Below are positions 1 through 21,426 of a stretch of DNA of 64,000 bases, piece by piece. A program made the position numbers and the translations under genes. Source of the DNA: a virus; IMG/VR virus record IMGVR_UViG_3300037069_000805, positions 40,241 to 104,240 of that record; one strand, written 5' to 3'. Under the pieces are notes generated by a model. It searched no databases, had not been told where the DNA came from, and saw only the letters and a list, made by a program, of their open reading frames with translations. Within the stretch, counting starts at the first letter, position 1; the number at the start of each line of letters is the position of its first letter.

Positions 1-3000
1 TCATAAATAATTTACCCCACCAATGTCTTAATGCTTCTGGTTGAGTATTTGGATCATAATTACCAAAACAATCCATTATTTTCTTTTTAATTAACAGATT
101 AATTTTTGCCTTACCACCTTCATTAACTTTAGAAGTTAGTGATTGTGTAGTATAAATAACTTTATCGTTAATTTTAAGAATACCATCTTCTTTATCAATG
201 TATAACATGTCTAATAAAGATGCAGATTTAGATTTATCTACAACATTACCATTCTTATCAATATAATTATTATCAGCATCCATTACTTTAATACTGTCTA
301 ATACAGAAGCAGTAAGTACAGATTGTACCCAGTGTTCACCACCAGAATGCATAAATTGTAATGATTCAGCATTTACATAAGATTTTAAAACACCTTTTTT
401 AATAAAAGCTTCCATACTATTTCTATCAAATCCAAATGTATCAAACATTCTATTCATTTGATTTATAAATGATTTTTCAACAGGTTGACCTAAATCTTTC
501 ATAGTATTTGCAAATTCTTTAAAATATAAAGCTTCTGCTTTAGCAAGATTTGTTTTATTAATTACATTCTTACTTAACCCTTCTAAAAACATCATTGCTT
601 TAGCATTTAATATATTCTGAGTAGCTGCAAACTTATTTAAACTTAATCCAATAGTAGCAAGTGAACCATTCATAAATCCAATAGCTTTATTAACGTCTAC
701 AGGACCTAATTTACCAGCATAATGATGTCCAATATCATAAATGTTTTTTTCCATTAGAGATTGTAATCTTTTATAAGTATTACTATTCTCACCAGTATCT
801 AACATTTGTGGATTGTTTTTATTAAATATAGATTTAAGAACTTCTTTACCACTTTGAGTTTTATAATATTTTTTAGATTTAGCAATATCTGTAATAGTAT
901 TTAATTCTCTTTCTCTTTTAGACTTTTCTTTATAATTAATACCATTTAGATATTGTAGTCTAAATACTGTCATTAAATCTAATGATTGATCTTTAGGATC
1001 TATTTGACCACTATATCTAACAGGAATATTATAAAGAATATTATTATCATTATCAGTCCTATAATTAAAATCTATATCATCAGCTTTAATTGTAGTTAAA
1101 TCTGTCCATTTATCTTTTATAATACCTTTAATATCACCACCTAATACTCTTTCTAAGTCAGATTTAGTAATAGAAGGTAATTCATAATAATAAGCATTAT
1201 TCTTTTTATTACCTACAAATTTCTTTTTAGATTGTTTACCAAATGTTACATCTGTAACTAAATCTTGAATTTCTGTAAAAGTTTTTAATACATCTTTTTC
1301 AATATCAGATAAATTAACTTTATTTTCATATTTATCTATATTTTTTAAAAGTGTATATTTTTCTTTAGCTTTAGTTCCAAATTCTATAGAATTAGTTGTA
1401 TGAGTTTTTAATATTTCATCTATTTCAGAATCAATTTTATTTAATTTATCTTTAAATTCTAAATTATGTGTACCAAGTAAATAATAATTACCAGCTTTAT
1501 CTTGTTGAATAATATTTTTATAAAGTTTAGTTACATCTTCTGTACCTTTCTCTTTAACTAATTTATCAAACAAACCACTTAATTCAAATTCTTTTTGTCT
1601 AACTTGATCATTAATAGCCTCCTTAACCTCATTTAATATCTGATTAAATATTTGTATTAGATGAGAATTAGTATTAATAGAATCATTAAAGAATTTAGTG
1701 CCAGATGATATATCATATGCAGGACTATCTATTAAATTATTTACATAAGATTCAGCATCATTTTGAATATCTTCTTTATATGTAGTATTCATTTGTCTAG
1801 CAATCCATACATCTTCAGATTCAGTTCTAGGAATAACTTTATAATCAATTTTTAACTGATCTTTCCATTTAGTTTCTAATTCTGGTAAATATTGAATATT
1901 AGATATTGTTAATTTTAAAGCTTTTTTAAGATAAGAATTATATTCAGTTTTTAAACTATCATATGTTCCTATAATATGTTTTAATGCATCATCCATTTCA
2001 TTAATATCATCATTAGATAAACCAAATTTATTTTCTACTTTAATATCAGCTAATAAATCTTGAATATCTTTAGCAATAGTAAATGAATCTAAATATTTAC
2101 TATAATGACCAATAGTTTTTAATATTTCTTCTTCAGTAAAAGATTTTCTATCAAAACTTCTTTCTAGTGAATTAATATCTTCAAATAATGATTTAGTATA
2201 AAATGATACAGCTTCTAATTGTTTAGCAGCATCAAAGTTTTCTAAAGCTTTTAATGTTTCTTTAAATTTATCTGAAAATTTTATAAATTTATCTTGTTGT
2301 TCACCTTTAGTAGTTCTATTACCAATTGCATTATAAAAGTTAATATTTTGATCTAATATATCTTTAGCTTTATTAATTACATGAGTAATCTTCTTATCAA
2401 TAGTATTTAAGTCATAATAACCTTCTTTCTTGTCTTTTAAGACAGTTTTAAACATTGCTGGACTATATATATCACCTTCAAAAGAAAAGCCTTTAAAATC
2501 ACTATTATCATTATTCTCAACAAAGTCATTTACTTTATTAATTAATAATGCAGCATCTATAAGTTCATTATTAGATAATGTTCTAGGTAATCCAAATAAT
2601 CTTCTAATAATATCTTTTAATTCATTCCAGAAAGATTTATTTTGTCTTAATTCAGCTTGAAATTCTGGATTACTAAATATCTCAGCTACAAATTCATCAG
2701 TATTAGTAAAACCATACTTAGAATTTATATCACCTCTTTCATTTGCTACAAACTTATGTTGTTCAAATGCTTTTTCAATAAATTTTTTAAATTCTCTTTC
2801 TTCAAAAGTTTGAGGATTTTTTAATGCTTTATGAGTAATAGCGTGAACAACTTCATGTATAAATGATTCAATAGTTTGTTCTTTAGATAAAGATTCTAAC
2901 GACTCTTTAGCTATAATTATTTTATTAAGATTAGCATCGTAAGCCATAGCTACAGAACTATCTACATAATCATATCTTTTAGACATGTTTTCTAAAGTAT

Positions 3001-4396
3001 CTATTTCTACAGTAGCTTTAGTATTATTAATAATCTTTTGACCTTTTTCTAATAAAGTTATAAAATTAGGTTGTAAATTCTCTTTATTTTGATTAATGAT
3101 ATTAGTTAAAACTTCTTCTACAGTATAACTATATTTTTCTTCAGAATTAAATAATAATTGTTTATTAGATTGAGTATTATCTGTTTTAATATTTGTAGTT
3201 GATGTATTTTCACCAGTAGTAAATATTTCTTCTTTTTTATTTTCATCTAATAATTTATTAAATAATATAGTAGAATTATCTCTTTCATTATCTAAAATAA
3301 CTTCATTCCAAGTATTATCATATTCGTCAGTAATTTGATTAGAATTATAATAATTTTGTAAATTTTTTCTAATTTTATCTTGACTTAATTTTTTAAATGA
3401 TTCCAAACTTTCAATTTGTTTTTCTAAATCATCAATTTTATCTGTAATGTTAAATAATTGATTATCATAAATTTCTTTAGTTATTTCATATTCTAAAGGA
3501 CCAACTCCTTCTGGAGTATTATTATCTATTTTAATATCTCCAATTTTAGAAGTAGTTTTAAAATTTAATAATTGTTTTCTTGCTAATATTAATTTTTTAT
3601 TTAATTCTTCAATTTTATTTTCAAAATATTTATTTATATTTTCAAGTTCTCTTTTAGCTATTTTGTCAGTAATTTTATTATTTAATTTTACAACTTTATT
3701 TGAAATTATAAGTTGGTATAAATCTTTAATTGTAGAATCTTCAGGTATTTTTATATTATCGTTAATTCCAAAAAATTCTTTAATAAAATCTAAAATTTTA
3801 CTTAATATAGAACGTTTAACTTTTAAATCTTCATTTTTAAATTCTTTTTCAATTGCTCTTACAATATATTCTTCTTGTTGCCAAGATTTTGGCATATCGG
3901 AATATGTTTTATTATTTAAAAATGAAGATATTTCTGGATATAATCTTTTAGAATCATTATAAATTTTATTAAATAATTCAGGATTTGAAGAATTTAAATA
4001 AGTTACAAAAGGATGTGATATTTCATGTAAAAATGTACTAGCATTTACTTTGTTTTTATTTAAATTTACAGTATTTGTATTTTTATCATATTCACCATAT
4101 GTTATAAAACCATCTTCTTTATCTTTAAATTCAACAAGGTTTAAATTTACTTTTTTATCTTTTGCAAAATAATTTAAACTTTTAATTATTTTTTCATCAT
4201 TATCTTCATTAATTAAATTTAAATTATTTTGATAATTTATTTCATTAGATTGTTGTAATTCATCAATAGTAGGAAAACTATCTACACCATTTTTATCCTG
4301 AAAGATAGAAATTTTAGCTTTCAGGATAATTGGATTTAAATCTGTTTGTTCTAATAGCTCTTTGTATTGAGCATCATTTATATTTATACAATTCAT
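1..4396 (-). CDS. Giant virion cargo protein with two zincin-like (HExxH) domains; 3' end lies outside the window (>1465 aa)
   Basis: Not in the ORF track because it is truncated. ATG at 4396-4394 overlaps the upstream TGA (ATGA); translation starts MNCININDAQYKELLEQ; motifs FLHEISHP (~4010-4035) and FIHEVVHA...TDEFVAE (~2685-2870); open in the segments I translated by hand; downstream of the vRNAP as in crAss-like cargo cassettes. Confidence 0.8.
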   Translation of the reverse strand, partial: MNCININDAQYKELLEQTDLNPIILKAKISIFQDKNGVDSFPTIDELQQSNEINYQNNLNLINEDNDEKIIKSLNYFAKDKKVNLNLVEFKDKEDGFITYGEYDKNTNTVNLNKNKVNASTFLHEISHPFVTYLNSSNPELFNKIYNDSKRLYPEISSFLNNKTYSDMPKSWQQEEYIVRAIEKEFKNEDLKVKRSILSKILDFIKEFFGINDNIKIPEDSTIKDLYQLIISNKVVKLNNKITDKIAKRELENINKYFENKIEELNKKLILARKQLLNFKTTSKIGDIKIDNNTPEGVGPLEYEITKEIYDNQLFNITDKIDDLEKQIESLESFKKLSQDKIRKNLQNYYNSNQITDEYDNTWNEVILDNERDNSTILFNKLLDENKKEEIFTTGENTSTTNIKTDNTQSNKQLLFNSEEKYSYTVEEVLTNIINQNKENLQPNFITLLEKGQKIINNTKATVEIDTLENMSKRYDYVDSSVAMAYDANLNKIIIAKESLESLSKEQTIESFIHEVVHAITHKALKNPQTFEEREFKKFIEKAFEQHKFVANERGDINSKYGFTNTDEFVAEIFSNPEFQAELRQNKSFWNELKDIIRRLFGLPRTLSNNELIDAALLINKVNDFVENNDNSDFKGFSFEGDIYSPAMFKTVLKDKKEGYYDLNTIDKKITHVINKAKDILDQNINFYNAIGNRTTKGEQQDKFIKFSDKFKETLKALENFDAAKQLEAVSFYTKSLFEDINSLERSFDRKSFTEEEILKTIGHYSKYLDSFTIAKDIQDLLADIKVENKFGLSNDDINEMDDALKHIIGTYDSLKTEYNSYLKKALKLTISNIQYLPELETKWKDQLKIDYKVIPRTESEDVWIARQMNTTYKEDIQNDAESYVNNLIDSPAYDISSGTKFFNDSINTNSHLIQIFNQILNEVKEAINDQVRQKEFELSGLFDKLVKEKGTEDVTKLYKNIIQQDKAGNYYLLGTHNLEFKDKLNKIDSEIDEILKTHTTNSIEFGTKAKEKYTLLKNIDKYENKVNLSDIEKDVLKTFTEIQDLVTDVTFGKQSKKKFVGNKKNNAYYYELPSITKSDLERVLGGDIKGIIKDKWTDLTTIKADDIDFNYRTDNDNNILYNIPVRYSGQIDPKDQSLDLMTVFRLQYLNGINYKEKSKRERELNTITDIAKSKKYYKTQSGKEVLKSIFNKNNPQMLDTGENSNTYKRLQSLMEKNIYDIGHHYAGKLGPVDVNKAIGFMNGSLATIGLSLNKFAATQNILNAKAMMFLEGLSKNVINKTNLAKAEALYFKEFANTMKDLGQPVEKSFINQMNRMFDTFGFDRNSMEAFIKKGVLKSYVNAESLQFMHSGGEHWVQSVLTASVLDSIKVMDADNNYIDKNGNVVDKSKSASLLDMLYIDKEDGILKINDKVIYTTQSLTSKVNEGGKAKINLLIKKKIMDCFGNYDPNTQPEALRHWWGKLFM

Positions 4397-5109
4397 ATTT
4401 TTTCTATTTTAAAACACTCTGTTGAACTACCTAAAAATTTGTTATTAGGAATGTAGTGAAAATTTTTTAGATATTTTATTAATAATTTTTCAGAAGTCCA
4501 AATATTTTCTGGAGTATCTTCTATTTGAGATAACATTTCTAACTTATAACCTGTTTTAGAAAAACCACTATATCTTCTATTTATATTTTTATGTTTAGTT
4601 ATACCTATTTTAAAAAAAGACTCATTTTCATTGTATATATTTAATAAATATAAATAAGCTTTATTATTAATACATATAGCTTTCCAGTTTTTAAATTTGA
4701 AATTATTATAATCTCTTGGATAACATTCTGGACATCCTTTACCTCTTAGAACATTTCTAGCTATCGTTTTAAAATGTCCATGATGATTACAAGTTAAAAT
4801 AACTTCATTCAGAATTCCTCTAAATTCAAGTTTATCAAATGAATATAAATCATTGTAAGCTTCTTTAACATCAAATATATATTTTTCTCTTCCTATTTTT
4901 AATTTAGTCTTTGATTTATTAATATCTCCACATTTTTTACAATTTCTAGAATGTGTTAAAAAATTATTAACAATAATTTCAAAATCACCATGTTTTTTAC
5001 ATGTAATTGTTACTTTATCATTATAAGATATAAAGATACTTTTTGAATAATCATATTTATTTCCATGAGTGTCCTTACATCTTTTAATAAATTCTTCTTG
5101 TGTTATCAT
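4393..5109 (-). CDS. Free-standing putative homing endonuclease (CxxHG/CxxC Zn-binding repeats plus GIY-YIG-like C-terminal domain)
   Basis: Two repeats ITCKKHGDF..CKKC and LTCNHHGHF..CPEC; C-terminal YLY..FFKIGIT..R..TECF; likely start ATG 5109 (MITQEEFIK) just after the RNAP stop, rather than 5190. Confidence 0.75.
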   Translation of the reverse strand: MITQEEFIKRCKDTHGNKYDYSKSIFISYNDKVTITCKKHGDFEIIVNNFLTHSRNCKKCGDINKSKTKLKIGREKYIFDVKEAYNDLYSFDKLEFRGILNEVILTCNHHGHFKTIARNVLRGKGCPECYPRDYNNFKFKNWKAICINNKAYLYLLNIYNENESFFKIGITKHKNINRRYSGFSKTGYKLEMLSQIEDTPENIWTSEKLLIKYLKNFHYIPNNKFLGSSTECFKIEKI

Positions 5110-5110
5110 A

Positions 5111-8100
5111 TTAACAAGATTTTTTCTGCCATAATATTGTAGCTTTTTCTTCTTCAGATAGATTATTATATTCTTGTTCAGATAATTCATTAAAAGTATT
5201 ATCTTTAGGTTCTATTGAAGTTTTTTCATTACTAGGTAATATACTTCTTTCTGTTTCATTCATATCTATATCATAAGCTACTTCAGGTAGCAATGTTTCA
5301 TTATAATATTTTAACAATCCTTCTTTATTAGCAATATCATTTTGAGCTAATAATGATCTATTGTTTTCATCAAATGAATATTCAAAATATTTATTACCTT
5401 GTTTATCTTTAAAACCTTTAGTATAAGTTCTTACATAAATTGGATCATGATGTTGGTCATATCCTATAAGTTTAAATAAATTATCATTCTGTTTAATATA
5501 TCTTCTAACCTTATTAACAAGTTGAGAATCTAATACAAATCCAAAATCTTTACTACCTCTTAATATTTGATTAGTAAATACGTTAGGAACATATAAAGAA
5601 TTATCATAATTATTCTGATAAAGCTGTTCTATAAAATTAGTATCAATATGTTTAAGTTCTCTTGAATTTAAATAACCATTAATATCTTTTTCAATAAAGA
5701 ATTCATTAGGTATTAATGTAAAAAATTGTCCTTTATTCATATTAAATCCTGATGTAATATAAGAATATTTAACTAAGTTTTCAGCCATTTCTTTATCATT
5801 ATTTAACATATCTAACCAAGACTTAGTAAGTTCTTGTTGAATATCAGCACTTTTTCTTCTATTACTTAATGTAATAAATAATTTATCATCTTTATTTTTA
5901 GATAAATCTAATTCTTTAAGAATAGCATATCTATTAGACTTACTATCTTTAAAAGCACTAAATTCTTTAACAAAATCATTAGATGTTAAATGTGTATATT
6001 CTGGAGAAGATGTTTTAATACCTTCAAATCCAGATAGTACATATGATAAGTATTTCTGTTCTAAGTCTTTACCAAAATCTTCATCCATTAACTTAGTACC
6101 TTTAACATCATTACTAATGATATCAAAGTTATTTATAATACTAGATTGAGTCATAAAGAATAATTTAGGATTTTTAACAACCATATTTATCATATCAAAT
6201 ATAGAATTATTTGTATAATGACCCAATAAAGTAGGTTTACCATTTCTTTCTAACTTGGTTTCAAATCCTAATAATTGACCTTTATCTTTATTATTTAATA
6301 AATCATTAATAATATTATTTCTAGCAACTAATGAAGTTACTGTTGAACCTATACCAGATACATCTTGTGTAGAACCATCAATATTTTTCTTCATTTTTTT
6401 AGCATCTTCTTTTAATTTAAAGAATGTAGATAATACTTTCATCTGAAATTCAGGAGTATCATTTAATAATAATGAATTAAACTCTGGAAAATAGCTCGGT
6501 TCTATCTGTTGTGATTTAACAAATGAAGCCTGTCTAGTACTAACTATATTAATAAATCTATCAAAACTTTCTTTATATTGTATAAGTTGTTCTTTAGTAA
6601 ATAAGGCTTTTTTAGTTCTTTCACCATCTTCAGTTACAAACTTTTTAGCTGATTGTAACTTAGTATTAATTTCATTATATGTTAATTTCTTATAATCAGT
6701 TTCAAAACTATTTTTAAATACTAATTTATGTAAATCTGCAACAGATATATTTCTATCACCAAATGGTAATTGTAATTGGAAATCTTTAGAATTTCTTAAT
6801 ACATCTAGTTTAAATTTATTTTCAATGTTACCAGTATCATTATTAATTTTAGATTCTTTATTGTTTTGAAATTGTATAAAACTTTTAAGAATTGGTTGTT
6901 TTAAGAAAGCATTTACTTGAAATGGATGTGCTCCAGCTCTTAATAACATATTACCAACATTTGTAGTAGCTGTATTCCAGTTACCTCTAGTAATATAAGG
7001 ATCTTTAGCTATATCTACAAAAGCATTAAGAATAGCTGATAATGAATTAGCTATCTTGATTTTTTTTAGACTTTCTAAATCAGAAGCACTTATTTTAGAA
7101 TCAGATAATTCATTATATTTTTTAGAATATAATTTTAAATCTTCATCTGATAATTCTTCTGAAAACTCTTCATCAAATTTAGTTTCACCTAATTCATTTT
7201 TAAAACCAACACCTAAATAATAACCATTAAATCTAAGATTAGCCATAGTACCTCTAACATGATCTACTAATGAATTAGCTTCCATTCCAACTCCAGCTTT
7301 ACCAGCTTTATATTGAGCTTTAATATATATATCTTTAAGTCCATCAAAATGATATGTATCACTAGTTTCATCTTCTTTATTAAAAGCTAAAATATCATTT
7401 TTAATAAAGTCAAAATCAATAGGTGTCATTAAATCATTTAATACATCTGGACTAGTAAATACAGCTTTATAAGCTTCAATAAGATCATTTTCTAATGAAT
7501 CTTTATATACTAACTTACCATCTACCTTATTAAATGAAGGTATCATCATATACATTTTATCAATATCGTAGTCACTACCAGTCTTAGTAGTAATACCTGT
7601 ATAAGCAACAATAGTATCACCCATTCCTTCTGGTAATATACCAGCTATTTGAAATGCATCATTTGAAGAAATTCCTTGATTAGGTATTCTATATCCAATA
7701 ATATTATTTAGTATCTTATAATCAATTAAACCACCTTCATATTCATTAGTTTCAGGATTTAATGTACCAAATAATATTTCTGGTTTATTAGTATAATCTC
7801 TATAATTAGGAATATGTTGTGCTATTAATGAACCTGGTATTAATATACCTGCTGGTCTAATCAATGGTTTACCATTAGGACCTTTTAATATATTACCAAT
7901 ACCATCTTTTTGTACTGTATAAGGTTGTACTTTATTTTCTGACCAAGGTGTCCATAAAACTCCTTTTTCATTTGCTTCAGTTTTATTTAAACCAAAATCA
8001 GACATTTGAATAAAAGAACCACCATTAGTTTTAATCTTAACAACTCTATCTAATACAATAGATGCAAACATATTCATAATCTTACCATATGCTTGTGGTA

Positions 8101-11100
8101 TACCTACTGGATTAATTTGAGCTTTTAAACCGTTAATAATATTTTTATTACCTTCTTGTTCAATTAATTGATTGGCTAAACTATCATAAAATAAAGATAC
8201 ATTATTAATTTTACCATTCTCATCAATACCTAATTCTTTATATAGTTGTTTAACACCTTTATTAGATAATTGTCCAACTATATTATTAATTTTATCAATT
8301 AATTGACTACCAGTTATATCTTCACCTTTATAATGAAACATTTTATCTAAATTAAAAGATAATCCTTGAAATACATTCTTTTGTATCTGAGAACCTGTAT
8401 CAGTATCATGTACACCCTTAGTAGGTAAATCTTGTTGAAGTTTCCAACCTGAATTTAAAAGTTCTTGTTTATTTAAAGTAAAATCTTTTTCTAATTCAGT
8501 TTCATTACCATCTTTATGTAATCTAGTAGTATTTAAAGAACCTACTTTAATACCATCTAATGTAATAACCTCATGTATCTGATCATTATAATGACTAGCT
8601 TCAGTCATTTTATTATACATATTCTCTAAAGATGTTCCTCTAATTAAAGAGGGAATAAGTACAGCTTGTGAATATTTAAGCATTGTAGGAACTCCATCTT
8701 TTACTTCAAAATATACACCTTTTAAAGGTTGCATTACAAATTTTAACTCTTTTTCAGTAAGAGTTTCTTCATTCTTTGTAATTTTATTATATACATGTTC
8801 ATAATTATCATTCCATTTACCCAAACCATTCATAATAAACTTCCATCTTGTAGGAGTTATCCATGCTTGAGCATCTGCAATATTAATATTATTACCCTTA
8901 TATTCTTTACCTTTATATGTAATACTATTAGTAGAACCAATATAATGTGCAGCAATTTCTGGTTTTAATATTTTATTATCAACTAATTCTTGAAAATAAT
9001 CTGTAAATGGTGAGCCACCTTCTACTGAAGCAATTGAAGCAATATTAAAATATTTATCATTAGTATTAAGATATTGACCATCTGTATAAGTAGCAGGTAC
9101 TCTTTTCTTATAATCAACCATATTTTTATAATATGCATAATCACCTGAAAAAGCTTTAGAATATTCTATTTGAGAAATTAAACCATTAATATATACATCT
9201 GCAGCAATTTGCTCTCTTATTTTATAAGATGATAATTGATTTTTATCTGCATATTTTTGATATATAGCACTATCAATAGCATAATTTTCAGTATCTAATT
9301 TATCAGTACCTTTAAATAATTCAATATCTAACATGGTATTTAATGTACCATTAATATTTTCTTTAATATTTTGTTTAATATGTTCTTTAATTGCAATTTT
9401 TATTCTACTTGGAAATGTATTCATTACAGGAAATCCAGTTACAGAATCATATAATATAACATCATTACCTTCTAAATCTTTAATTTTAGGTAATGTGGAT
9501 AACTTTCCTTTATTAAAGTCAACAGATAATGAAGGAAATAAAGCTGATTTAAGACCATTTTTATTACCAAGATGATAATGAATATATAACTTACTATTAT
9601 CTTTGTTTAAATCAGCTTGTTTTATCTCATAAGCTACTTTATTCATCCTATCATACTCATCTATAAAGTAATTATACAATACTTCAATAGCTTCATCATT
9701 AATAATATCGTTTTCAGAATCATAATTTGATTCAATAAATATTTCTTTAGGATATTCTATTAGTTTTTGTTGAGATTTATCTGCTGGAGTAACTGTTCTA
9801 ATAATAGGATTATTATTTTTAACAAAAGATAATAAATTATTAATATAACTAGCAATTTCATCATTAGTAGTTATTTCTTTATTATCTACAGCATTTTTAA
9901 AATCTTCAGTTTCCTGTAAATTATTAAATATACCTACATTAAAATTTTCTAATCTATCTTTTATTACATTATCTTTTTCAGCTGGAGTTAAATATTCTAA
10001 ATCTGAAGCTAATAAATAATTTAATAATTTAGATCTTTTATTAAATGGTGTTGATTCTAAATGTTGTCTAATTAATTCAGGATGTTTTTTCCATTTTTCA
10101 ACCTTAATAGTTAAATAATCTGGTTTACTAAAAACCCATTTGGTAGTTCCTGCAGAAAATATAGTTGATTCAGAACCTTCTGTAAAATATTTTGCTTCAG
10201 CATTAGCTAATTGTTTAAATATATTTTCATATTTTAAAGCATTACCTTCTGAAGGTTTAATATTTTTGTTAAGTATATTTTTGGAAAAGTATTGTAATTT
10301 ATTTATTAAACTATTTGTAGCAAGTTTTATAGAATCTGTATCATATATATCTTCTAGATTATTTCTAAGAAAATAATTCATACCTTCTTCTGTAGTAACT
10401 AAACCTAAATCAGACAATATTTTAACTAAAGGATTTAATTTATGTAATAATTCAGTAGATATTAAATCTTCTTTAACTATTTTAGTATTAAATTCTTGTT
10501 TAAAATCATTAATTTTATCTGAAACTATTTTAAATTTTTCATATTTAAAATTATCGTTATTAAGATATATTTCATTAAATTTAATACCCCATTCTTCCAA
10601 TATTCTAGAAGCTTTGGAATTAGTTTCAGTAACAGGTAATACTCTTTGTGAATAATTAGTTAATAAATTATCTTTAGTATATTGCTTATCTACTTCAAAT
10701 GTATAAAATTCATTTTTTGACAAATCAAATGCTTGTACAAATTTATTCTTAGTATTTAAACTTAAAGGTTTGTTAGTACTTTCTAATATATTAAGTACAT
10801 CTTTAATGAAAGGTTGAAATTCTTTCTCTTTTTCTAGTATACTTATAAATTCATTAAACTTATTTTCATCATCTTTAACTACAACATTATTTAATACTTG
10901 TAATAGATGTCCATATACTTGTTCAAATGTATAAAATGAATTACTATCTAATACATCATCTACCTCATTAACATTTGGTATTAAAGATAACATAAGTTTA
11001 ACATCAGAATTAATATTTTCTTTATATGATCTTTCATATGATGATACATTAAAAGAATGTTCTCTTGTATCATCTTGAACAGTATTCATATCATCAATAT

Positions 11101-11713
11101 TATTTTCATTTTCATTATACTTAATCTTAATAGATTTAAAATAATCTATAACCTCATCTTTAATCTCATCAATATTATCTAATAATTTAGTGATACGTTG
11201 TGATTTGATTTTAGCTATAGGTGTACTAATTGTAGATAATTCTTTAAGTTTATTATGTAAAGTATCTTCTATAAATTTACTAATATTAGTATTACTAGTT
11301 TGATTAAAATCTAAATCTTCAAATTGTTCAACTAATCTAAAATTATTTTTAATATATTGAGCACCTAAAGTTTTCTTAAGTTTATTAATACTATTAGATG
11401 TTAATACTTTAGTTAAACCTTTTTCAGGGAAAAATACTCTTTCATTATTTTTATTTAAATAATAATGTCTATTATAGTTTTCATCTTTAAATAACTTAGG
11501 TTCACCATTATCATCAACTCTGTCTTGATTAATTTCCTTAACTTCATTCTGATAATCTTCTTCATAATTACCAAATTGATTTATAAAACTTTCAGATTTA
11601 AATTGTGTATAATAACGATTAGCTAACAATTCATCATTACTAGTTAATTTAAGTAAACTATTAAATAAAATAGATTCATTATCATTTGTATTTGTTTGTC
11701 TTTTACAACTCAT
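5111..11713 (-). CDS. Virion-packaged single-chain DNA-dependent RNA polymerase (phi14:2 gp66-like)
   Basis: 2200 aa; GYRIPNQG and GSDYDIDK catalytic motif (7559-7573), AFVDIAKDP; size and position match the crAss-like vRNAP. Confidence 0.92.
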   Translation of the reverse strand: MSCKRQTNTNDNESILFNSLLKLTSNDELLANRYYTQFKSESFINQFGNYEEDYQNEVKEINQDRVDDNGEPKLFKDENYNRHYYLNKNNERVFFPEKGLTKVLTSNSINKLKKTLGAQYIKNNFRLVEQFEDLDFNQTSNTNISKFIEDTLHNKLKELSTISTPIAKIKSQRITKLLDNIDEIKDEVIDYFKSIKIKYNENENNIDDMNTVQDDTREHSFNVSSYERSYKENINSDVKLMLSLIPNVNEVDDVLDSNSFYTFEQVYGHLLQVLNNVVVKDDENKFNEFISILEKEKEFQPFIKDVLNILESTNKPLSLNTKNKFVQAFDLSKNEFYTFEVDKQYTKDNLLTNYSQRVLPVTETNSKASRILEEWGIKFNEIYLNNDNFKYEKFKIVSDKINDFKQEFNTKIVKEDLISTELLHKLNPLVKILSDLGLVTTEEGMNYFLRNNLEDIYDTDSIKLATNSLINKLQYFSKNILNKNIKPSEGNALKYENIFKQLANAEAKYFTEGSESTIFSAGTTKWVFSKPDYLTIKVEKWKKHPELIRQHLESTPFNKRSKLLNYLLASDLEYLTPAEKDNVIKDRLENFNVGIFNNLQETEDFKNAVDNKEITTNDEIASYINNLLSFVKNNNPIIRTVTPADKSQQKLIEYPKEIFIESNYDSENDIINDEAIEVLYNYFIDEYDRMNKVAYEIKQADLNKDNSKLYIHYHLGNKNGLKSALFPSLSVDFNKGKLSTLPKIKDLEGNDVILYDSVTGFPVMNTFPSRIKIAIKEHIKQNIKENINGTLNTMLDIELFKGTDKLDTENYAIDSAIYQKYADKNQLSSYKIREQIAADVYINGLISQIEYSKAFSGDYAYYKNMVDYKKRVPATYTDGQYLNTNDKYFNIASIASVEGGSPFTDYFQELVDNKILKPEIAAHYIGSTNSITYKGKEYKGNNINIADAQAWITPTRWKFIMNGLGKWNDNYEHVYNKITKNEETLTEKELKFVMQPLKGVYFEVKDGVPTMLKYSQAVLIPSLIRGTSLENMYNKMTEASHYNDQIHEVITLDGIKVGSLNTTRLHKDGNETELEKDFTLNKQELLNSGWKLQQDLPTKGVHDTDTGSQIQKNVFQGLSFNLDKMFHYKGEDITGSQLIDKINNIVGQLSNKGVKQLYKELGIDENGKINNVSLFYDSLANQLIEQEGNKNIINGLKAQINPVGIPQAYGKIMNMFASIVLDRVVKIKTNGGSFIQMSDFGLNKTEANEKGVLWTPWSENKVQPYTVQKDGIGNILKGPNGKPLIRPAGILIPGSLIAQHIPNYRDYTNKPEILFGTLNPETNEYEGGLIDYKILNNIIGYRIPNQGISSNDAFQIAGILPEGMGDTIVAYTGITTKTGSDYDIDKMYMMIPSFNKVDGKLVYKDSLENDLIEAYKAVFTSPDVLNDLMTPIDFDFIKNDILAFNKEDETSDTYHFDGLKDIYIKAQYKAGKAGVGMEANSLVDHVRGTMANLRFNGYYLGVGFKNELGETKFDEEFSEELSDEDLKLYSKKYNELSDSKISASDLESLKKIKIANSLSAILNAFVDIAKDPYITRGNWNTATTNVGNMLLRAGAHPFQVNAFLKQPILKSFIQFQNNKESKINNDTGNIENKFKLDVLRNSKDFQLQLPFGDRNISVADLHKLVFKNSFETDYKKLTYNEINTKLQSAKKFVTEDGERTKKALFTKEQLIQYKESFDRFINIVSTRQASFVKSQQIEPSYFPEFNSLLLNDTPEFQMKVLSTFFKLKEDAKKMKKNIDGSTQDVSGIGSTVTSLVARNNIINDLLNNKDKGQLLGFETKLERNGKPTLLGHYTNNSIFDMINMVVKNPKLFFMTQSSIINNFDIISNDVKGTKLMDEDFGKDLEQKYLSYVLSGFEGIKTSSPEYTHLTSNDFVKEFSAFKDSKSNRYAILKELDLSKNKDDKLFITLSNRRKSADIQQELTKSWLDMLNNDKEMAENLVKYSYITSGFNMNKGQFFTLIPNEFFIEKDINGYLNSRELKHIDTNFIEQLYQNNYDNSLYVPNVFTNQILRGSKDFGFVLDSQLVNKVRRYIKQNDNLFKLIGYDQHHDPIYVRTYTKGFKDKQGNKYFEYSFDENNRSLLAQNDIANKEGLLKYYNETLLPEVAYDIDMNETERSILPSNEKTSIEPKDNTFNELSEQEYNNLSEEEKATILWQKKSC

Positions 11714-11714
11714 A

Positions 11715-14700
11715 TTAATTTCCTTTACAAATTTTCTTAATTTCTTCTGGTTTGTAGTTTAACTCTATAATTTTTTCAAAATCTACATAAGTTAAATCAT
11801 TATCAGATTTATTATTTTCATCTTTATATATATCCATTCCTTTTAAGAATGTTTCATCTTCAAGAAATAAATCTATTTGTGGTTCAGATAATTTAGTATT
11901 ATCTTTTTTAACATCTTCAGTTAATTTTTGTGCCTCTTTATTTTCCACTGTACCAGGTATTTCACTTTGTGATTGCAAAGATAGTGATTTTTTTTCAGAA
12001 TTCCTAGTATTTTCTACTTTATTTTCATTACCAGTAGCAACATTAAAGAAATCAGTAGCTAAATTCATTTCTTCTTCTGGACTTAAATTAGCATCTTTAC
12101 CTACATATTTATCTAAGTAATCATTTTGTGCTTTAGTAAATTTAGTTGTACTAGGATTTTTTATAATAGGTTTAGTTTCTAAGTAAATGTTAGTATAACC
12201 TCCAAATGTTGGTTTTAAATTACCATTTTCATCAGTTCCTACGACAGCATTTGTATTTAATACATTATTTTGAATAAGATAGTTTAAATAATCTATATTA
12301 TGTGTATTTAAAGCTTTAGTTCCAATATTTTTAGGATTACCAAAGTTTATACCTCTTCTTTTTTGAGTAGTTAAAAACTCTATTAAATCACCCTCAACAG
12401 CTTCTAATTCATCTAAACTATTAACACTTACATTTCTAAATTTAAATGCCCCTGTTTTATAATCAAATCTAAATTGTGATTTTTCATTTTCAGAACCATC
12501 GTAAATTAATAAATCAATTATATCTTTTAATGAAATTTCATTTTCATTTTTAACAGATTTAATCAAATCATATTCTATTGGTATAGTTAATTTAATTTTA
12601 TTTACTAAATCAGGTGCGTCTTTTTCAATATCTTTTAATAAAGTAGCTTTATTTAAGGTTGTAGGTCTATTATTATTTTTAAATCTATATCTAGTAATAT
12701 CAAATAATAAATCAGCCTGATTAAAATCTAATTTTAAAGTATTTAATTTTAAATGAAACAACTCACCATTAGTCATTGGTATTTTTAAATAAAATTCTCC
12801 AGAAGATAAAGTTTCTCCATTAACATTATATTTAGTTTCAATATCTCCTTTAGGATTAATTAAAGTACCAAAATCTTGCACATTAAATAAATTCTCTCTA
12901 ATATATTGATAACCTTTTTTAGTTAAATTACCATTTTCATCTACTAATTTTAATGTTTGAAATGCTTGTAATTGAGAAATAGTATTCTCTTTTACATTTC
13001 CATTTTCATCTGTATCTGTAATTAGCGTACCAGGCATTTGTCCTGCAATTTTAATAGACATATTATTTAAAGAATTACCATCTAATATAGAATTAACTAT
13101 CAGTAATCTACTATCTCTATCTTTGCTATTAAATATTTCAGCACTAACTTTAGTAGAAGGTAGTGTTTCCATTGGCGCAACTACATTAGAGTCCTTTATA
13201 CCTACATTTAAAGGAAGATAATTAGTTAAGAACTCTCTAAGTTCATCTATAGATTTAATGTTGTTCTTAGGACTGTTAATTATGTATTGTATTGTTTCTT
13301 TAATACTATTACTTTGTAAATATGTAGCAATTTCTGAAGCAAGTTTTAAATTAGCATTATCTCCAGGATTAGTGTTTATACTAAAATTTAATACTCTTCC
13401 TGTTTTATCTTCAGGAGTATTTTCATAATCAATCCAATCTTGATTTATAAATTCAAATTTTACTCCAGTCTTTTGATTTTTACTTATTAGTTTTAATTTA
13501 TTTTGTTGTAAAGTTTTATACTTAGTATCACCTGCTATTTTTTTACTTTCATTAATATTATCTTCTAAATTTACATCATCTACTTGTTCAAATGAATTAT
13601 CTGGATTATCAGTTAAAGTTCCACTAGGAGTTGTTGAAGTATTACCTTCATTTTCAACTTCATCTTTTTGGTTTGATATAGTAGCATCTTCTTCTTGTTT
13701 TAAAGACTCTTTAGAATCTTCTATTGCTTTGCTAATAATTGGATTATCTTTTTGTTCTTTAGATAATTTATCTGTAAAATCTTGTAAATCTTTACTAGTA
13801 GGTTGTTTTCTTATGTTATCTATAACTTCTTGATGTTTTTCTGTATTTTCGTCAGAAGTTTCTTTTTCTAGATTTTCTCTTTGGTTTATTAAACTATCAA
13901 AATAATTCTGATTAGCCTTTTTATCCCAAATAACATCATTAACTAATTCAGATATTTCTTTTAGATTATTTTTAGATTTTTCTATCTGCTTATCTAAATG
14001 TTCTATTACATTACCTTTATTTTCTTTTTTGTATTTATAGATTTCTTCAGTAACACCTTCTTTGTAATCAGGATTTAATTCTAATTCTTTTTTAGGCAAA
14101 TAATCTAAATTCTTTTCAAATTCAATTTTTTGTTTCTCTAATTTATCTAATTTTTTACGCTCATGATATTCATCTGACTTTTCACCTATATAAGTGTTTA
14201 ATAAATTCATATAGTATGATTTATAGTCATTATCATTAGCTTTTACATTTTTAGGTTGTATTTTTAATGCTTTTTGAAAGTCATTAAAAGCTTGAACATG
14301 TTTTTGTAAATATTTAGCTTTATCTATAACTCTTTCAATAGATTCTCTATTTTCTTTATTTTTATTTTTACGTTCTTTTTCTTCTAATGTATTATCAGAC
14401 TCTTGTGTATCTTCTGAGAACAATTGTTTTAAATGTTCATGTAAAGCGTCAATACCCATCTCGTCCTCACCTATAAAATTATTAATTAATTGAGTTTCTG
14501 CAGAATGTTTTAAATCTTCAATAAGTTGTTCATTACCATTTTTAACAGCTAAGTCGAATAATTCAGACTTACCTTCCATTATATTTAAAGCATCATGTAC
14601 TTTTTTAACATTTTCTGGAATTATAATTTTATTACCTTTTTTATCCTTATCAAATACTCTTTCTTCTTTACCAGTTTCTTTATTTAGTTCTACATGGCTT

Positions 14701-16352
14701 TTATAAATATCTGTATTTAATATTGTATTATAATCAGATGAATGAAGATTTATTTTGTCTATTAATTTATTTGTTTTTTCTCTATCTTGTGCATCATGTT
14801 TCATTCCTCCATATACACCAAAAGCACCACCTTGTACAGCTCCTAATAATACTGAAACCTGCCCTTCAGTTGTTCCTAATGTTTTTATATAATCAGATCC
14901 TAATGATATTAAATCTAAATTTAATTCGCCATCATCTGTAATTAAATTATTAGAATCTTTTTTACCATATAATCCTCTTTTTACAATTCTATTTTCTAAA
15001 GTAGTTTGAATACCTTCTTCCCATAAACCTTCAGATGCAGCATTTTTAACAAAATGTCCTAATACATCTTTAACTACATTTTTACCACTTCTTTGCGCTA
15101 CATTCTCTAATTTAGGTATTTCTTTTTCAGTAGTTGATGTTATAGCTTTACCTAATTTCTGTAGTGGTTTATATTCTGAATTTGCAATTTTACCACCAAC
15201 TTGATCAACTAAGTTAGTTAAAGTTTTATTTTCAGCTGTTTTAACTAAAGACTTAGCTCCTTTACCATATAATAGTCTTGTCTGAATATAATCTGGACCA
15301 GCCAATACAGCTACATTATCCCAAAATGATGTAGACATTGCATTAGCAACTCTTTCTTTAAATTCATTTTCAGCTACATCATCTGATACTGTTGCTGATT
15401 TTTGATTATATTCTTCGTCAGTTATTTGATGAGTTCTTCTTTTTATATCTAAATCAGCTAATTCATTTAGAACTTTTTGTTGATAATCTGGTTGTGCTTT
15501 TCTATTTTTAATCCATTTAGGTTTTTCTTTCATCATATCATCAGAAACACCTTTTGATTCTGCTCCAGCTTCAAAAAATACATTTGCAGCAGTTATACCT
15601 ATCTCATTAACTTTTTCAGCAGTAAAACCTAATTTTGTTAATTTTGAAATTGTATCTCCAGTATCTTTAGCGTAACCAACTCTATTTAACGCTTTAGCTG
15701 ATAAACCTAATAATTCTTCACTTATTCCCATAGCTTTAAATGCAGCTCCAGGAGCCATAGCTGATAACATATAACCTAAACCATCTGCACCATCAGTAGC
15801 AAAAAATGAAGTAGATTTCATTTTATCAATAACATTACCATCCTGGACTGCTCTTGATATATATACTGGTAATAAATCACTATTAATTTTTGCATTTAGA
15901 TTATCCAATGCTTTTACACCAACATTATTAAATGTTGTATCTAAAAAATTATGTTCATCCTTACCTGTTGTAAGATCACCAATATTTTCAACAGTTCCAG
16001 CTATAGCACCACCTAAGTAAGCTACTGTTTTAGCCATTTCTATACCTGCTTTATCAGCAGTTCTAATAAGACCTAAACCAGCTTGTGCTAAACCAGATTG
16101 TTCATTAGCTCTATGTTCATTAATAGAACCTTGAACATCATCTTTTCTAATATCAGTTGCCCAGTTTAAACCTTCGTCATATTTAGAATCACCGTATCCA
16201 GTATTTACACCAAGTAATGAAGTGTTTATTTTACTATAAACTTGCTTCATTTTATTTGGAGTATCTTGTTTTAGTCCTAATTGATCAGCTAAACCCTTTT
16301 TTGGAGGATCTGTAAACTCATTATCATAAGGATTGTTTTGTAATAAACTCAT
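11715..16352 (-). CDS. Large virion cargo/ejection protein (1545 aa)
   Basis: Gly/Ala-rich N-terminal segments, EGLWEEGIQ motif, coiled-coil middle; directly upstream of the vRNAP. Confidence 0.7.
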   Translation of the reverse strand: MSLLQNNPYDNEFTDPPKKGLADQLGLKQDTPNKMKQVYSKINTSLLGVNTGYGDSKYDEGLNWATDIRKDDVQGSINEHRANEQSGLAQAGLGLIRTADKAGIEMAKTVAYLGGAIAGTVENIGDLTTGKDEHNFLDTTFNNVGVKALDNLNAKINSDLLPVYISRAVQDGNVIDKMKSTSFFATDGADGLGYMLSAMAPGAAFKAMGISEELLGLSAKALNRVGYAKDTGDTISKLTKLGFTAEKVNEIGITAANVFFEAGAESKGVSDDMMKEKPKWIKNRKAQPDYQQKVLNELADLDIKRRTHQITDEEYNQKSATVSDDVAENEFKERVANAMSTSFWDNVAVLAGPDYIQTRLLYGKGAKSLVKTAENKTLTNLVDQVGGKIANSEYKPLQKLGKAITSTTEKEIPKLENVAQRSGKNVVKDVLGHFVKNAASEGLWEEGIQTTLENRIVKRGLYGKKDSNNLITDDGELNLDLISLGSDYIKTLGTTEGQVSVLLGAVQGGAFGVYGGMKHDAQDREKTNKLIDKINLHSSDYNTILNTDIYKSHVELNKETGKEERVFDKDKKGNKIIIPENVKKVHDALNIMEGKSELFDLAVKNGNEQLIEDLKHSAETQLINNFIGEDEMGIDALHEHLKQLFSEDTQESDNTLEEKERKNKNKENRESIERVIDKAKYLQKHVQAFNDFQKALKIQPKNVKANDNDYKSYYMNLLNTYIGEKSDEYHERKKLDKLEKQKIEFEKNLDYLPKKELELNPDYKEGVTEEIYKYKKENKGNVIEHLDKQIEKSKNNLKEISELVNDVIWDKKANQNYFDSLINQRENLEKETSDENTEKHQEVIDNIRKQPTSKDLQDFTDKLSKEQKDNPIISKAIEDSKESLKQEEDATISNQKDEVENEGNTSTTPSGTLTDNPDNSFEQVDDVNLEDNINESKKIAGDTKYKTLQQNKLKLISKNQKTGVKFEFINQDWIDYENTPEDKTGRVLNFSINTNPGDNANLKLASEIATYLQSNSIKETIQYIINSPKNNIKSIDELREFLTNYLPLNVGIKDSNVVAPMETLPSTKVSAEIFNSKDRDSRLLIVNSILDGNSLNNMSIKIAGQMPGTLITDTDENGNVKENTISQLQAFQTLKLVDENGNLTKKGYQYIRENLFNVQDFGTLINPKGDIETKYNVNGETLSSGEFYLKIPMTNGELFHLKLNTLKLDFNQADLLFDITRYRFKNNNRPTTLNKATLLKDIEKDAPDLVNKIKLTIPIEYDLIKSVKNENEISLKDIIDLLIYDGSENEKSQFRFDYKTGAFKFRNVSVNSLDELEAVEGDLIEFLTTQKRRGINFGNPKNIGTKALNTHNIDYLNYLIQNNVLNTNAVVGTDENGNLKPTFGGYTNIYLETKPIIKNPSTTKFTKAQNDYLDKYVGKDANLSPEEEMNLATDFFNVATGNENKVENTRNSEKKSLSLQSQSEIPGTVENKEAQKLTEDVKKDNTKLSEPQIDLFLEDETFLKGMDIYKDENNKSDNDLTYVDFEKIIELNYKPEEIKKICKGN

Positions 16353-16361
16353 ATTTTATAT

Positions 16362-18726: not shown

Positions 18727-18728
18727 TA

Positions 18729-20946: not shown

Positions 20947-20958
20947 ATTTAATATTAT

Positions 20959-20986: not shown

Positions 20987-20994
20987 GATTGGTT

Positions 20995-21395: not shown

Positions 21396-21426
21396 TTTTT
21401 AAATACATATTTTATAATATTTTTTA

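What the first reader, a model, noticed from the sequence alone, without database searches (positions are those of the whole stretch)
4388..16352. Terminal cysteines pair up the giant ejection proteins head-to-tail in gene order
Seen: the 2200-aa vRNAP has exactly two Cys, residue 3 (11705-11707, MSCK) and the very last residue (5114-5116, KKSC*). The upstream 1545-aa cargo protein has one Cys, fourth from the C-terminus (11727-11729, KKICKGN*). The downstream zincin giant starts MNC (4388-4390). The 577- and 603-aa cargo proteins have no Cys, whereas portal, muzzle and TerL have scattered Cys. So across ~3700 residues all three Cys sit at ends that face the neighbouring gene product, and both C-termini look like short amphipathic helices. 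Inference: C- and N-terminal docking modules, locked by disulfide or shared metal, chain the proteins 1545aa -> RNAP -> zincin protein so they are packaged stoichiometrically and threaded through the tail in order, with release in the reducing cytoplasm. Caveat: the zincin protein has at least one internal Cys (68-70) and I did not translate all of it. I do not know of a published description, but could not search.
Basis: partly seen in the sequence, partly recalled or inferred. Interest (0 to 1): 0.85.

Follow-up and report, generated by a model that had tools for sequence, protein, structure and literature searches.

The report
Terminal cysteines chain crassvirus cargo proteins
Three giant proteins that this crAss-like phage probably packs in its head and injects, its RNA polymerase in the middle, have cysteine almost only at the ends that face the next protein, and hundreds of relatives follow the same rule, which suggests the proteins are tied end to end by disulfide bonds into one thread, though nobody has shown the bond in a crassvirus.

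Summary
Here the 1545-aa protein (A) has one Cys, fourth from its C-end. The 2200-aa virion RNA polymerase (B) has two, residue 3 and the last residue. The 1689-aa zincin protein (C) has Cys3 plus one internal Cys. The five cargo proteins hold 5 Cys in 6614 aa, against 1.26% in the rest of the genome.

- **Relatives:** 114 of 120 free-standing RNAP orthologs have Cys at both ends, and 104 have no other Cys. All 45 complete related loci show A (C-end only), B (both ends), C (N-end only), as do phi14:2 and crAss001. crAss002 and a p-crAssphage-type phage, built differently, keep the facing pair at their one junction.
- **Fusion and fission:** fused junctions lack both cysteines. Two of three triple fusions (4714 and 4744 aa) have no Cys at all, and a split RNAP has a new pair.
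- **Precedent:** cyanophage A4, where cryo-EM shows a gp27 Cys1715–gp26 Cys5 disulfide, has the same signature.

The best reading is a head-to-tail disulfide chain A-B-C. The bond and its role are inferred, and docking prediction gave only weak support. I found no paper describing this in crassviruses. This scan has noted the same pattern on at least 18 other crassvirus genomes.

The parts
11715..16352 (-). Protein A: 1545-aa cargo protein, ortholog of phi14:2 g067 and crAss001 gp47. Its single Cys is C1542, fourth from the C-end (codon 11727-11729).
   Evidence: Orthologs in 45 loci have no N-terminal Cys and a near-C-terminal Cys, the sole Cys in 43 of them.
5111..11713 (-). Protein B: 2200-aa virion RNA polymerase (phi14:2 gp66 type). 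It has two Cys only: C3 (11705-11707) and C2200, the last residue (5114-5116). The catalytic DYDID motif is at residues 1381-1385 (7559-7573).
   Evidence: 31% identity over 90% to phi14:2 g066; C3, C2200 and the three Asp invariant in a 25-sequence alignment.
5114..5179 (-). RNAP C-terminal tail: predicted helices at residues 2179-2183 and 2187-2199, ending in Cys2200, preceded by about 48 low-confidence residues. Candidate plug.
   Evidence: AF2 on alignment A2; alignment of tails, Cys the only invariant column.
1..4396 (-). Protein C: zincin-like RNAP-associated protein. It is 1689 aa in the whole genome, of which the window holds the first 1465. Ortholog of phi14:2 g065 and crAss001 gp49. 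Cys3 (4388-4390) plus one internal Cys1443 (68-70). HExxH motifs at residues 124 and 514.
   Evidence: (SprT-like, E = 1e-4, below Pfam's cut-off).
4247..4396 (-). Zincin N-terminal head: conserved module of about 50 aa, predicted as a small three-helix domain (helices 9-18, 22-36, 44-49, pLDDT 76-83). Cys3 sits in the free N-terminal stub, and a low-confidence linker follows. Candidate socket.
   Evidence: (51% identity to distant loci over residues 2-54).
4393..5109 (-). Homing-endonuclease-like ORF (238 aa from the ATG at 5109) inserted between the RNAP and zincin genes. Cys-rich, so it is not part of the chain.
   Evidence: T5orf172, DUF723; phrog_681 endonuclease, E = 3e-38.
16362..18173 (-). 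603-aa cargo protein (by position the counterpart of crAss001 cargo protein 2), no Cys.
18729..20462 (-). 577-aa cargo protein 1 (crAss_CARG1 domain), no Cys.
18163..18726 (-). GIY-YIG homing endonuclease gene between the two small cargo genes (4 Cys).
20416..20946 (-). GIY-YIG homing endonuclease gene between the muzzle gene and cargo protein 1 (6 Cys).
21427..25470 (-). Muzzle protein, 1347 aa with 6 scattered Cys. It marks the start of the cargo block and serves as an in-genome control for Cys content.
   Evidence: (crAss_MUZ, E = 5e-192).

Best explanation
The three giant cargo proteins are made separately. Inside the virion they are joined head to tail into one nearly linear thread: A(C-end)-S-S-(N-end)RNAP(C-end)-S-S-(N-end)zincin protein.

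**Proposed steps (all inferred)**
1. The C-terminal tail helix of one protein docks on the N-terminal module of the next. This happens non-covalently in the reducing cytoplasm during assembly.
2. Once the particle is outside the cell, the two facing cysteines oxidise to a disulfide.
3. Each Cys sits within a few residues of a chain end, and internal Cys have been purged. The product therefore has no loops or branches and is topologically like one polypeptide of about 5400 residues.
4. Such a thread could pass, partly unfolded, through the narrow tail in a fixed order at 1:1:1.
5. In the host cytoplasm the bonds are reduced and the RNA polymerase and its partners separate.

**What is shown**
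- The Cys pattern and its conservation.
- The counting rule: terminal Cys = 2 x (number of proteins - 1).
- Cys absent at fused junctions and present at a split one.
- An experimentally seen disulfide with the same sequence signature in phage A4.
For: 1. **Window.** 5 Cys in 6614 aa of cargo proteins against 1.26% elsewhere in the genome. Four of the five lie within 4 residues of an end, and only at ends that face the next protein.
2. **Free-standing RNAP orthologs.** 114 of 120 have Cys at both ends and 104 of 120 have exactly two Cys. There are 10 internal Cys in 288,477 residues. The N-terminal Cys is at residue 3 in 100 of them, and the C-terminal Cys is 0-6 residues from the end.
3. **Related loci.** In 45 non-redundant IMG/VR loci with three separate genes:
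 - B has both terminal Cys in 45 of 45.
 - A never has an N-terminal Cys. Its near-C-terminal Cys (sole in 43 loci) lies 0-11 residues from the C-end in 43, 31 from the end in L050, and in a frameshifted continuation ORF in L048.
 - C has an N-terminal Cys in 44 of 45 (at residue 13 in L084, where a later start MVC is likely) and never a C-terminal one.
4. **Cultured phages.**
 - phi14:2: g067 C1797 (last residue), g066 C3 and C2179 of 2180, g065 C3.
 - crAss001: gp47 sole Cys 2339 of 2341, gp50 C5 and C2404 of 2412, gp49 sole Cys 5.
 - In crAss001 gp47 lies on the opposite strand from gp50-gp49, so the pattern is not a by-product of abutting genes.
 - crAss002 and CrAssphage ZA keep a C-terminal Cys on the upstream giant and an in-frame MSC at the likely true start of the next.
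5. **Natural experiments.**
 - A+B fusions: among 120 proteins of 3858-4816 aa, most of them fusions, 114 have a C-terminal Cys and no N-terminal Cys. Where domains could be mapped, many have no Cys at all inside and none shows a junction pair.
 - B+C fusions (L041, L045, L080; 3516-3525 aa): only the N-terminal Cys remains.
 - Triple fusions: P0121 (4714 aa) and P0124 (4744 aa) have zero Cys, and P0138 has none at its ends.
 - A true split of the RNAP (L088) has a new C-end/N-end pair.
 - This pairs A(C) with B(N) and B(C) with C(N).
6. **Protein-level selection.** Both codons (TGT and TGC) are used, flanking residues vary, and the loci span 23-36% G+C.
7. **Precedent.** Cryo-EM of cyanopodophage A4 shows the C-terminal helix of gp27 in a cleft of gp26, fixed by a Cys1715-Cys5 disulfide (PMC12002296). 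In A-4L, gp27 (1717 aa) and gp26 (1114 aa) each have that single Cys only.
8. **Disulfides exist in crassvirus virions.** They stabilise the crAss001 tail (PMC10172136).
9. **Docking prediction.** RNAP tail (35 aa) with zincin head (62 aa) scored ipSAE 0.48, best of 3 controls 0.02: weak support.
 - The mark was reached by 58 of 80 solved complexes and 2 of 110 mismatched pairs.
 - At 0.60 or under, only 7 of those 80 solved complexes reached it, and so did both mismatches that passed.
 - The runs agree in at least 88% of contacts and the partner's pLDDT is at least 65. My own alignments were used, so the counts hold only roughly.
10. **Co-variation.** Tail and head segments at cognate junctions co-vary more than non-cognate pairs: partial Mantel r 0.66 and 0.46-0.51 against 0.18-0.26.
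Against: - No disulfide between cargo proteins has been observed in any crassvirus. The cargo was not resolved in the crAss001 maps.
- Assembly takes place in a reducing cytoplasm, and gut phages live in anoxic surroundings. The bond would have to form after release.
- The docking score is in the weak range.
- The co-variation is confounded by physical linkage, because the tail and head codons lie next to each other in most genomes.
- The Cys purge is not absolute. The window's zincin protein has C1443, crAss001 gp50 has C1334, and the giant proteins of gut lineages carry several internal Cys each: 7 and 8 in the RNAP fusions of the Intestiviridae crAss002 and CrAssphage ZA, 3 in the CrAssphage ZA zincin fusion, and 19 in the p-crAss-like locus L095.
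- In a few relatives the Cys is 11-31 residues from the end, which would leave a longer side stub.
- The number of independent fusion events is small and was not established with a tree.
- Nothing tested here bears on the proposed purposes (ordered threading, stoichiometry).
Confidence: 0.65

Rival explanations
1. The facing cysteines do link neighbouring proteins, but the purpose is static. They lock a pre-ejection cargo complex in the head, as drawn for A4 gp27-gp26, or piggy-back proteins into the procapsid. They do not make a thread that is pulled through the tail in order.
For: In A4 the bond is described as stabilising the outer layer of an ordered pre-ejectosome. Nothing tested here concerns the order of ejection.
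Against: - A static lock does not need the Cys at the extreme ends or the purge of all other Cys.
- It does not explain why peptide-bond fusion can replace the pair.
- The crAss001 cargo gave no clear ordered density in the published maps.
Confidence: 0.15
2. The terminal cysteines join neighbours through a shared metal ion or some other chemistry, not a disulfide.
For: Sequence alone cannot tell a disulfide from a metal bridge.
Against: - Each terminus supplies a single Cys, with no conserved His, Asp or second Cys beside it. Flanking residues vary widely, and in the tail alignment the Cys is the only invariant column.
- Two thiolates alone make a poor site for the common structural metals (general knowledge).
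- The same signature in A4 is a disulfide.
Confidence: 0.07
3. The terminal cysteines bond to other virion parts (portal, ring or capsid proteins, which do have Cys), or pair differently, for example RNAP N-end with its own C-end and A with C.
For: Portal, ring and muzzle proteins carry Cys. crAss001 tail parts are disulfide-bonded.
Against: - The count of terminal Cys is always even and equals 2 x (proteins - 1): 0, 2, 4 and 6 for one to four proteins.
- A+B fusions lack exactly A(C) and B(N), and B+C fusions lack exactly B(C) and C(N). Under the alternative pairings this would leave orphan Cys.
- The outer ends of the series never carry Cys.
Confidence: 0.06
4. The pattern comes from nucleotide-level signals at gene junctions (translational coupling, promoters) or from chance in a Cys-poor protein.
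For: The genes abut closely here: stop and start are 1 nt apart at A|B, and the two junctions share a TTGTAAA word.
Against: - crAss001 gp47 is encoded on the opposite strand, away from gp50, yet keeps its C-terminal Cys.
- In this window an endonuclease gene separates B and C.
- The distance of the Cys from the end varies (0-6), both codons occur, and flanks vary.
- The chance probability is about 7e-8 for this window alone.
Confidence: 0.01

Closest known systems
Cyanopodophage A4 (Anabaena phage A-4L) ejection proteins gp27 and gp26, Cys1715-Cys5 disulfide in the cryo-EM pre-ejectosome (PNAS 2025, PMC12002296)
   Same: Adjacent genes encode large ejection proteins. The upstream one has a single Cys third from its C-end, and the downstream one has a single Cys at residue 5. 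Both are otherwise Cys-free. The C-terminal helix docks in the next protein and the two Cys are bonded.
   Different: - No detectable sequence homology to the crassvirus proteins.
- One junction, not two to three.
- No RNA polymerase in the chain.
- The paper reports the bond as a structural detail of an ordered five-fold ring. It does not draw a general rule or a threading role.
- The bond is shown in A4 and only inferred here.
RNAP-associated cargo proteins of cultured crassviruses: phi14:2 g067-g066-g065 and crAss001 gp47, gp50, gp49 (Drobysheva et al. 2020 preprint 10.1101/2020.03.07.982082; Bayfield et al. 2023, PMC10172136)
   Same: Orthologous proteins in the same order, with the same terminal Cys pattern. 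They were detected in virions by mass spectrometry, and fused polyprotein forms are noted in some phages.
   Different: Neither paper mentions cysteines or disulfides in these proteins. Bayfield et al. say only that ejection order is probably set by packing and mutual interactions. Drobysheva et al. propose proteolytic cleavage of the fused forms.
Coliphage N4 virion RNA polymerase gp50 with ejection proteins gp51 and gp52 (Schitoviridae; PMC13434306)
   Same: A giant RNA polymerase stored in the head and thought to be unfolded and threaded through a 30-45 A tail as 'beads on a string'. gp50 (3500 aa), gp51 and gp52 contain no Cys at all, like the crassvirus triple fusions.
   Different: A single chain, so no junctions and no terminal Cys. 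The polymerase family is unrelated (T7-like in N4, two-barrel here).
Docking domains of modular polyketide and non-ribosomal peptide synthases (from general knowledge, not tested here)
   Same: A short C-terminal tail of one giant protein docks on the N-terminal module of the next, fixing the order of separately translated subunits.
   Different: Non-covalent, cytoplasmic, and unrelated in sequence. It is an analogy for how the system may work, not a family assignment.

Membership tests
Crassvirales virion RNA polymerase (phi14:2 gp66 type, two-barrel) | Full-length similarity to gp66 | tested here: met
   tblastn: 31% identity over 90% of the query to phi14:2 g066, E = 2e-150.
Crassvirales virion RNA polymerase (phi14:2 gp66 type, two-barrel) | Catalytic DFDxD-type motif | tested here: met
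   DYDID at residues 1381-1385. The three Asp are invariant in the 25-sequence alignment A1.
Crassvirales virion RNA polymerase (phi14:2 gp66 type, two-barrel) | Packaged in the virion and ejected | not testable with these tools
   Shown by mass spectrometry only for phi14:2 and crAss001. Inferred here from orthology and position.
Crassvirus cargo and tail block | Muzzle, cargo protein 1, ring proteins and capsid protein by curated profiles, in the usual order | tested here: met
   crAss_MUZ E = 5e-192, crAss_CARG1 E = 2e-19, CrAss_Ring_1, CrAss_Ring_2 and Crass_capsid E = 6e-169.
Zincin-like RNAP-associated protein (phi14:2 gp65 type) | Homology to gp65 and an HExxH metalloprotease motif | tested here: met
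   BLASTP to phi14:2 g065, E = 9e-109. HExxH at residues 124 and 514. The Pfam SprT-like hit over 488-543 has E = 1e-4 but falls below the curated cut-off, so the fold assignment itself is weak.
Disulfide-linked ejection protein pair (A4 gp27-gp26 type) | Upstream protein has a lone Cys within a few residues of its C-end, the next protein has one within a few residues of its N-end, and both are otherwise nearly Cys-free | tested here: met
   The same holds in 45 loci and 120 orthologs.
Disulfide-linked ejection protein pair (A4 gp27-gp26 type) | C-terminal helix of one protein docks in the N-terminal part of the next | tested here: inconclusive
   ipSAE 0.48 against a best control of 0.02, which is weak support. 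AF2 predicts a terminal helix and a three-helix head.
Disulfide-linked ejection protein pair (A4 gp27-gp26 type) | A disulfide physically present in the virion | not testable with these tools
   Needs non-reducing gels, disulfide mapping or a structure.
Disulfide-linked ejection protein pair (A4 gp27-gp26 type) | Sequence homology to A4 gp27 and gp26 | tested here: not met
   BLASTP and phmmer of A4 gp26-gp29 against 135 crassvirus A, B and C proteins gave nothing below E = 0.4. The likeness is in design, not demonstrable descent.

The most novel reading that the evidence does not exclude
Crassviruses, including the most abundant phage group of the human gut, build a covalent but reducible protein thread. 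Separately translated giants are spliced end to end by terminal disulfides into the topological equivalent of one polypeptide of about 5000 residues. The design rule is terminal Cys = 2 x (proteins - 1). The RNA polymerase and its partners are then pulled through the tail in a fixed order and released by the reducing power of the host cytoplasm. The same solution arose independently in cyanophage A4. The Cys-free N4 polymerase and the Cys-free crassvirus triple fusions are the single-chain version of the same design.
Probability: 0.5. Interest if true: 0.85.

Novelty: new variant of a known kind. Interest (0 to 1): 0.8.

Why it matters
How podophages move megadalton amounts of protein, including a polymerase of more than 2000 residues, through a tail narrower than the folded proteins is an open question for both crassviruses and N4-like phages.

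A reducible end-to-end tether would explain several things at once:
- what sets the order and 1:1:1 stoichiometry of the cargo;
- why these proteins are almost free of cysteine;
- why gene fusion and fission are tolerated so freely in this module.

It also makes the question directly testable in cultured phages (crAss001, phi14:2) with simple gels, disulfide mapping and point mutants.

There is a practical by-product. The MxC rule locates the true start codons of giant genes that are mis-annotated in reference crAssphage records.

Tried and rejected
- **Head-to-head homology.** I asked whether the RNAP head and the zincin head are the same domain, and whether the two tails are homologous. hhalign gave probability 2.7% and 0.2%, so there is no support.
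- **Homology of A4 gp26-gp29 to the crassvirus proteins.** None found.
- **Fold of the zincin head.** VIA-align against 48,161 chains gave a best Z of 4.1, with ties among UBA, CUE and EF-Ts-like three-helix bundles. That is a common arrangement only, so no assignment.
- **Amphipathic tails.** The hydrophobic moment is unremarkable.
- **Nucleotide-signal explanation.** Rejected.
- **Genomic context of the triple fusions P0121 and P0124.** A scan of viral contigs found no close relative of P0121. I therefore know only that these proteins contain A, B and C regions in one frame, not what their neighbours are.
- **Termini in the phi14:2 gp66 structure.** The published Nature version of the gp66 paper was not held. 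The preprint does not describe the termini. The protein was purified with DTT, crystallised with TCEP and assayed with DTT.
- **Splits inside the catalytic motif.** RNAP genes split within the catalytic motif by an endonuclease-bearing insert (L002, L032/L033, L035, L073) have no Cys at the split. I read these as introns or similar inserts removed before translation, but did not test splicing.
- **L007.** The RNAP is interrupted by an unrelated 1161-aa ORF. Its first part has no C-terminal Cys, while the second part starts MGC. I did not explain this.

Full report
**What is in the window**

The window is the last 64 kb of a 104,240-bp IMG/VR virus record with about 23-30% G+C. On the minus strand lies the usual crassvirus tail and cargo block:
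- muzzle (21427-25470, crAss_MUZ E = 5e-192);
- a GIY-YIG endonuclease gene;
- cargo protein 1 (18729-20462, crAss_CARG1);
- a second GIY-YIG gene;
- a 603-aa cargo protein (16362-18173);
- a 1545-aa protein, called A here (11715-16352);
- a 2200-aa protein, B (5111-11713);
- a 238-aa endonuclease-like ORF (4393-5109);
- a giant protein, C, that runs off the window.

B is the virion RNA polymerase. It matches phi14:2 g066 over 90% of its length and carries DYDID at residues 1381-1385. In the whole genome C is 1689 aa. It is the ortholog of the zincin-like phi14:2 g065 and has HExxH at residues 124 and 514. Portal, TerL, capsid and ring proteins lie further along the window.

A has one Cys (C1542, fourth from the end). 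B has two (C3 and the last residue). C has C3 and C1443. The 603-aa and 577-aa proteins have none. Together these five proteins hold 5 Cys in 6614 aa, while the rest of the genome has 276 in 21,912 aa (Fisher p = 2.5e-25).

**Conservation**

- *Free-standing RNAPs.* A search of 5.8 billion proteins with the RNAP core listed 120 free-standing orthologs of 1371-3396 aa. 114 have Cys both within the first 8 residues and within 6 of the end. 104 have exactly these two Cys. There are 10 internal Cys in 288,477 residues. This holds even where helicase, NADAR or oxygenase domains are inserted.
- *Related loci.* In 45 non-redundant IMG/VR loci with three complete genes, B always has both terminal Cys. 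A never has an N-terminal Cys, and its Cys sits near the C-end and is the sole Cys in 43 loci (0-11 residues from the end in 43 loci, 31 in L050, and in a frameshifted continuation ORF in L048). C has an N-terminal Cys and never a C-terminal one.
- *Cultured phages.* phi14:2 follows the rule. So does crAss001: gp47 has a sole Cys at 2339 of 2341, gp50 has C5 and C2404 of 2412 plus one internal, and gp49 has a sole Cys at residue 5. In crAss001 gp47 is on the opposite strand from gp50-gp49.
- *Intestiviridae.* crAss002 and a p-crAssphage-type genome have a different domain arrangement. The upstream giant still ends in ..VCS or ..SCM. The next giant has an in-frame MSC at residues 33-35 or 22-24 of its annotated product, which is probably the true start.
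- *Level of selection.* Both Cys codons are used and the flanking residues vary, so selection acts on the protein.

**Natural experiments**

- *A+B fusions.* A search for longer relatives listed 120 proteins of 3858-4816 aa, most of them fusions. 114 have a Cys at the C-end and none at the N-end. Where A and B regions could be mapped, no Cys pair sits at the internal junction, and many of these proteins have no internal Cys at all.
- *B+C fusions.* L041, L045 and L080 have B at residues 1-2150 and C from about 2200 with HExxH. Only the N-terminal Cys remains, and their A proteins keep the C-terminal Cys. The junction still shows homology to the free zincin head from about residue 10-30 on, but without the Cys.
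- *Triple fusions.* Three proteins contain A, B and C regions in one frame. P0121 (4714 aa) and P0124 (4744 aa) have no Cys at all, and P0138 has none at its ends.
- *Fission.* In L088 the RNAP is two proteins, and each new end carries a Cys (..ECL, then MAYC..).
- *The rule.* The number of terminal Cys equals twice the number of junctions. That pairs A(C) with B(N) and B(C) with C(N), and argues against cyclisation of B or bonding to third parties.
- *Limit.* I did not build a tree, so the number of independent fusion events is unknown.

**Docking modules**

AF2 on a 19-sequence alignment predicts that the last 70 residues of B are disordered apart from a short helix (residues 2179-2183) and a terminal helix (2187-2199, pLDDT 76-81) ending at Cys2200. 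The first 50 residues of C form a small three-helix domain (pLDDT 76-83), with Cys3 in the free stub and a low-confidence linker behind.

Co-folding the tail with the head gave ipSAE 0.48 against a best control of 0.02. That passes the mark but is graded weak:
- 58 of 80 solved complexes and 2 of 110 mismatched pairs reached the mark;
- at 0.60 or under, only 7 of the solved complexes did, and so did both mismatches that passed;
- the runs agree in at least 88% of contacts and the partner's pLDDT is at least 65;
- my own alignments were used, so the counts hold only roughly.

Tail and head classes change together. L028 and L074 share A tails and B heads but differ jointly in B tail and C head. 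Partial Mantel correlations are higher for cognate junctions than for non-cognate pairs. Physical linkage of the codons could produce this on its own.

**What is known**

Neither the phi14:2 RNAP paper nor the crAss001 atlas mentions cysteines in these proteins. The atlas does report disulfides in the tail, and says that ejection order probably depends on packing and mutual interactions. A 2026 N4 paper still calls the crassvirus ejection proteins unresolved. Five full-text searches found no description.

A note from this scan pointed me to cyanopodophage A4. I read the paper, which shows a disulfide between Cys1715 of gp27 and Cys5 of gp26, with the gp27 C-terminal helix in a gp26 cleft. I checked the A-4L genome: each protein has that Cys only, and there is no sequence homology to the crassvirus proteins. 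N4 gp50, gp51 and gp52 have no Cys at all.

This scan has reported the same pattern on at least 18 other crassvirus genomes. Those are unchecked AI notes, not independent evidence.

**Reading**

The most economical explanation is a head-to-tail disulfide chain A-B-C. The extreme terminal position of the Cys and the purge of internal Cys fit a product that must stay linear to pass a narrow channel. Fusion by peptide bond is then the equivalent solution. The bond chemistry, when it forms, and its purpose (ordered threading, stoichiometry, release on reduction) are inferred. I put 0.65 on a disulfide thread with a role in ejection. Most of the rest goes to a disulfide with a static or packaging role.

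Noticed in passing
window 4393-5109, 18163-18726, 20416-20946 (all minus strand): Three homing-endonuclease-type genes (one T5orf172/DUF723, two GIY-YIG) are wedged between the cargo genes, with overlapping or abutting stops and starts. The block seems to be a hot spot for mobile endonuclease insertion.
   Followed up: partly
L002 14107-15038; L032 and L033; L035; L073: In several relatives the RNAP gene is interrupted exactly inside the catalytic motif (..TKTGSD | FDxDKM..) by about 0.9 kb. In L002 the insert carries a 217-aa Cys-rich ORF. No terminal Cys flank the split, which suggests an intron-like insert rather than two proteins.
   Followed up: partly
L089 (crAss002 gp33, locus 13247) and L090 (CrAssphage ZA RNAP fusion, locus 12887): The annotated starts lie 32 and 21 codons upstream of an in-frame MSC. 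In CrAssphage ZA the annotated start is not an ATG. By the MxC rule the true starts are probably the MSC methionines.
   Followed up: partly
window 49859-51346 (-): The phage encodes a 495-aa chaperonin of the Cpn60/TCP-1 family (Pfam E = 5e-55), next to the terminase gene.
   Followed up: no
L014, L018, L025, L027, L028, L044, L051, L074 and others, between genes A and B: One class of relatives (A tail ..ICG[FIL], B head MAC[TK]R..) has a constant spacer of 47-52 nt between A and B, where other classes have -13 to 3 nt. This may be a conserved intergenic element.
   Followed up: no
L007 7382-19376: The RNAP is interrupted by an unrelated 1161-aa ORF. Its first part has no C-terminal Cys but has a Cys 287 residues from its end, and the second part starts MGC and ends in C. 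The rule does not explain this.
   Followed up: no
L096 (coliphage N4) 10524-23524: N4 gp50 (3500 aa), gp51 (644 aa) and gp52 (150 aa) contain no cysteine at all. Avoiding Cys may be general for proteins ejected through podophage tails.
   Followed up: partly
L085, L077, L076 and the 'longer' proteins: In the A+B fusion lineages the HExxH zincin motif sits in the middle of the fused giant, and the downstream 'C' protein often lacks it. The protease domain has therefore moved between chain members.
   Followed up: no
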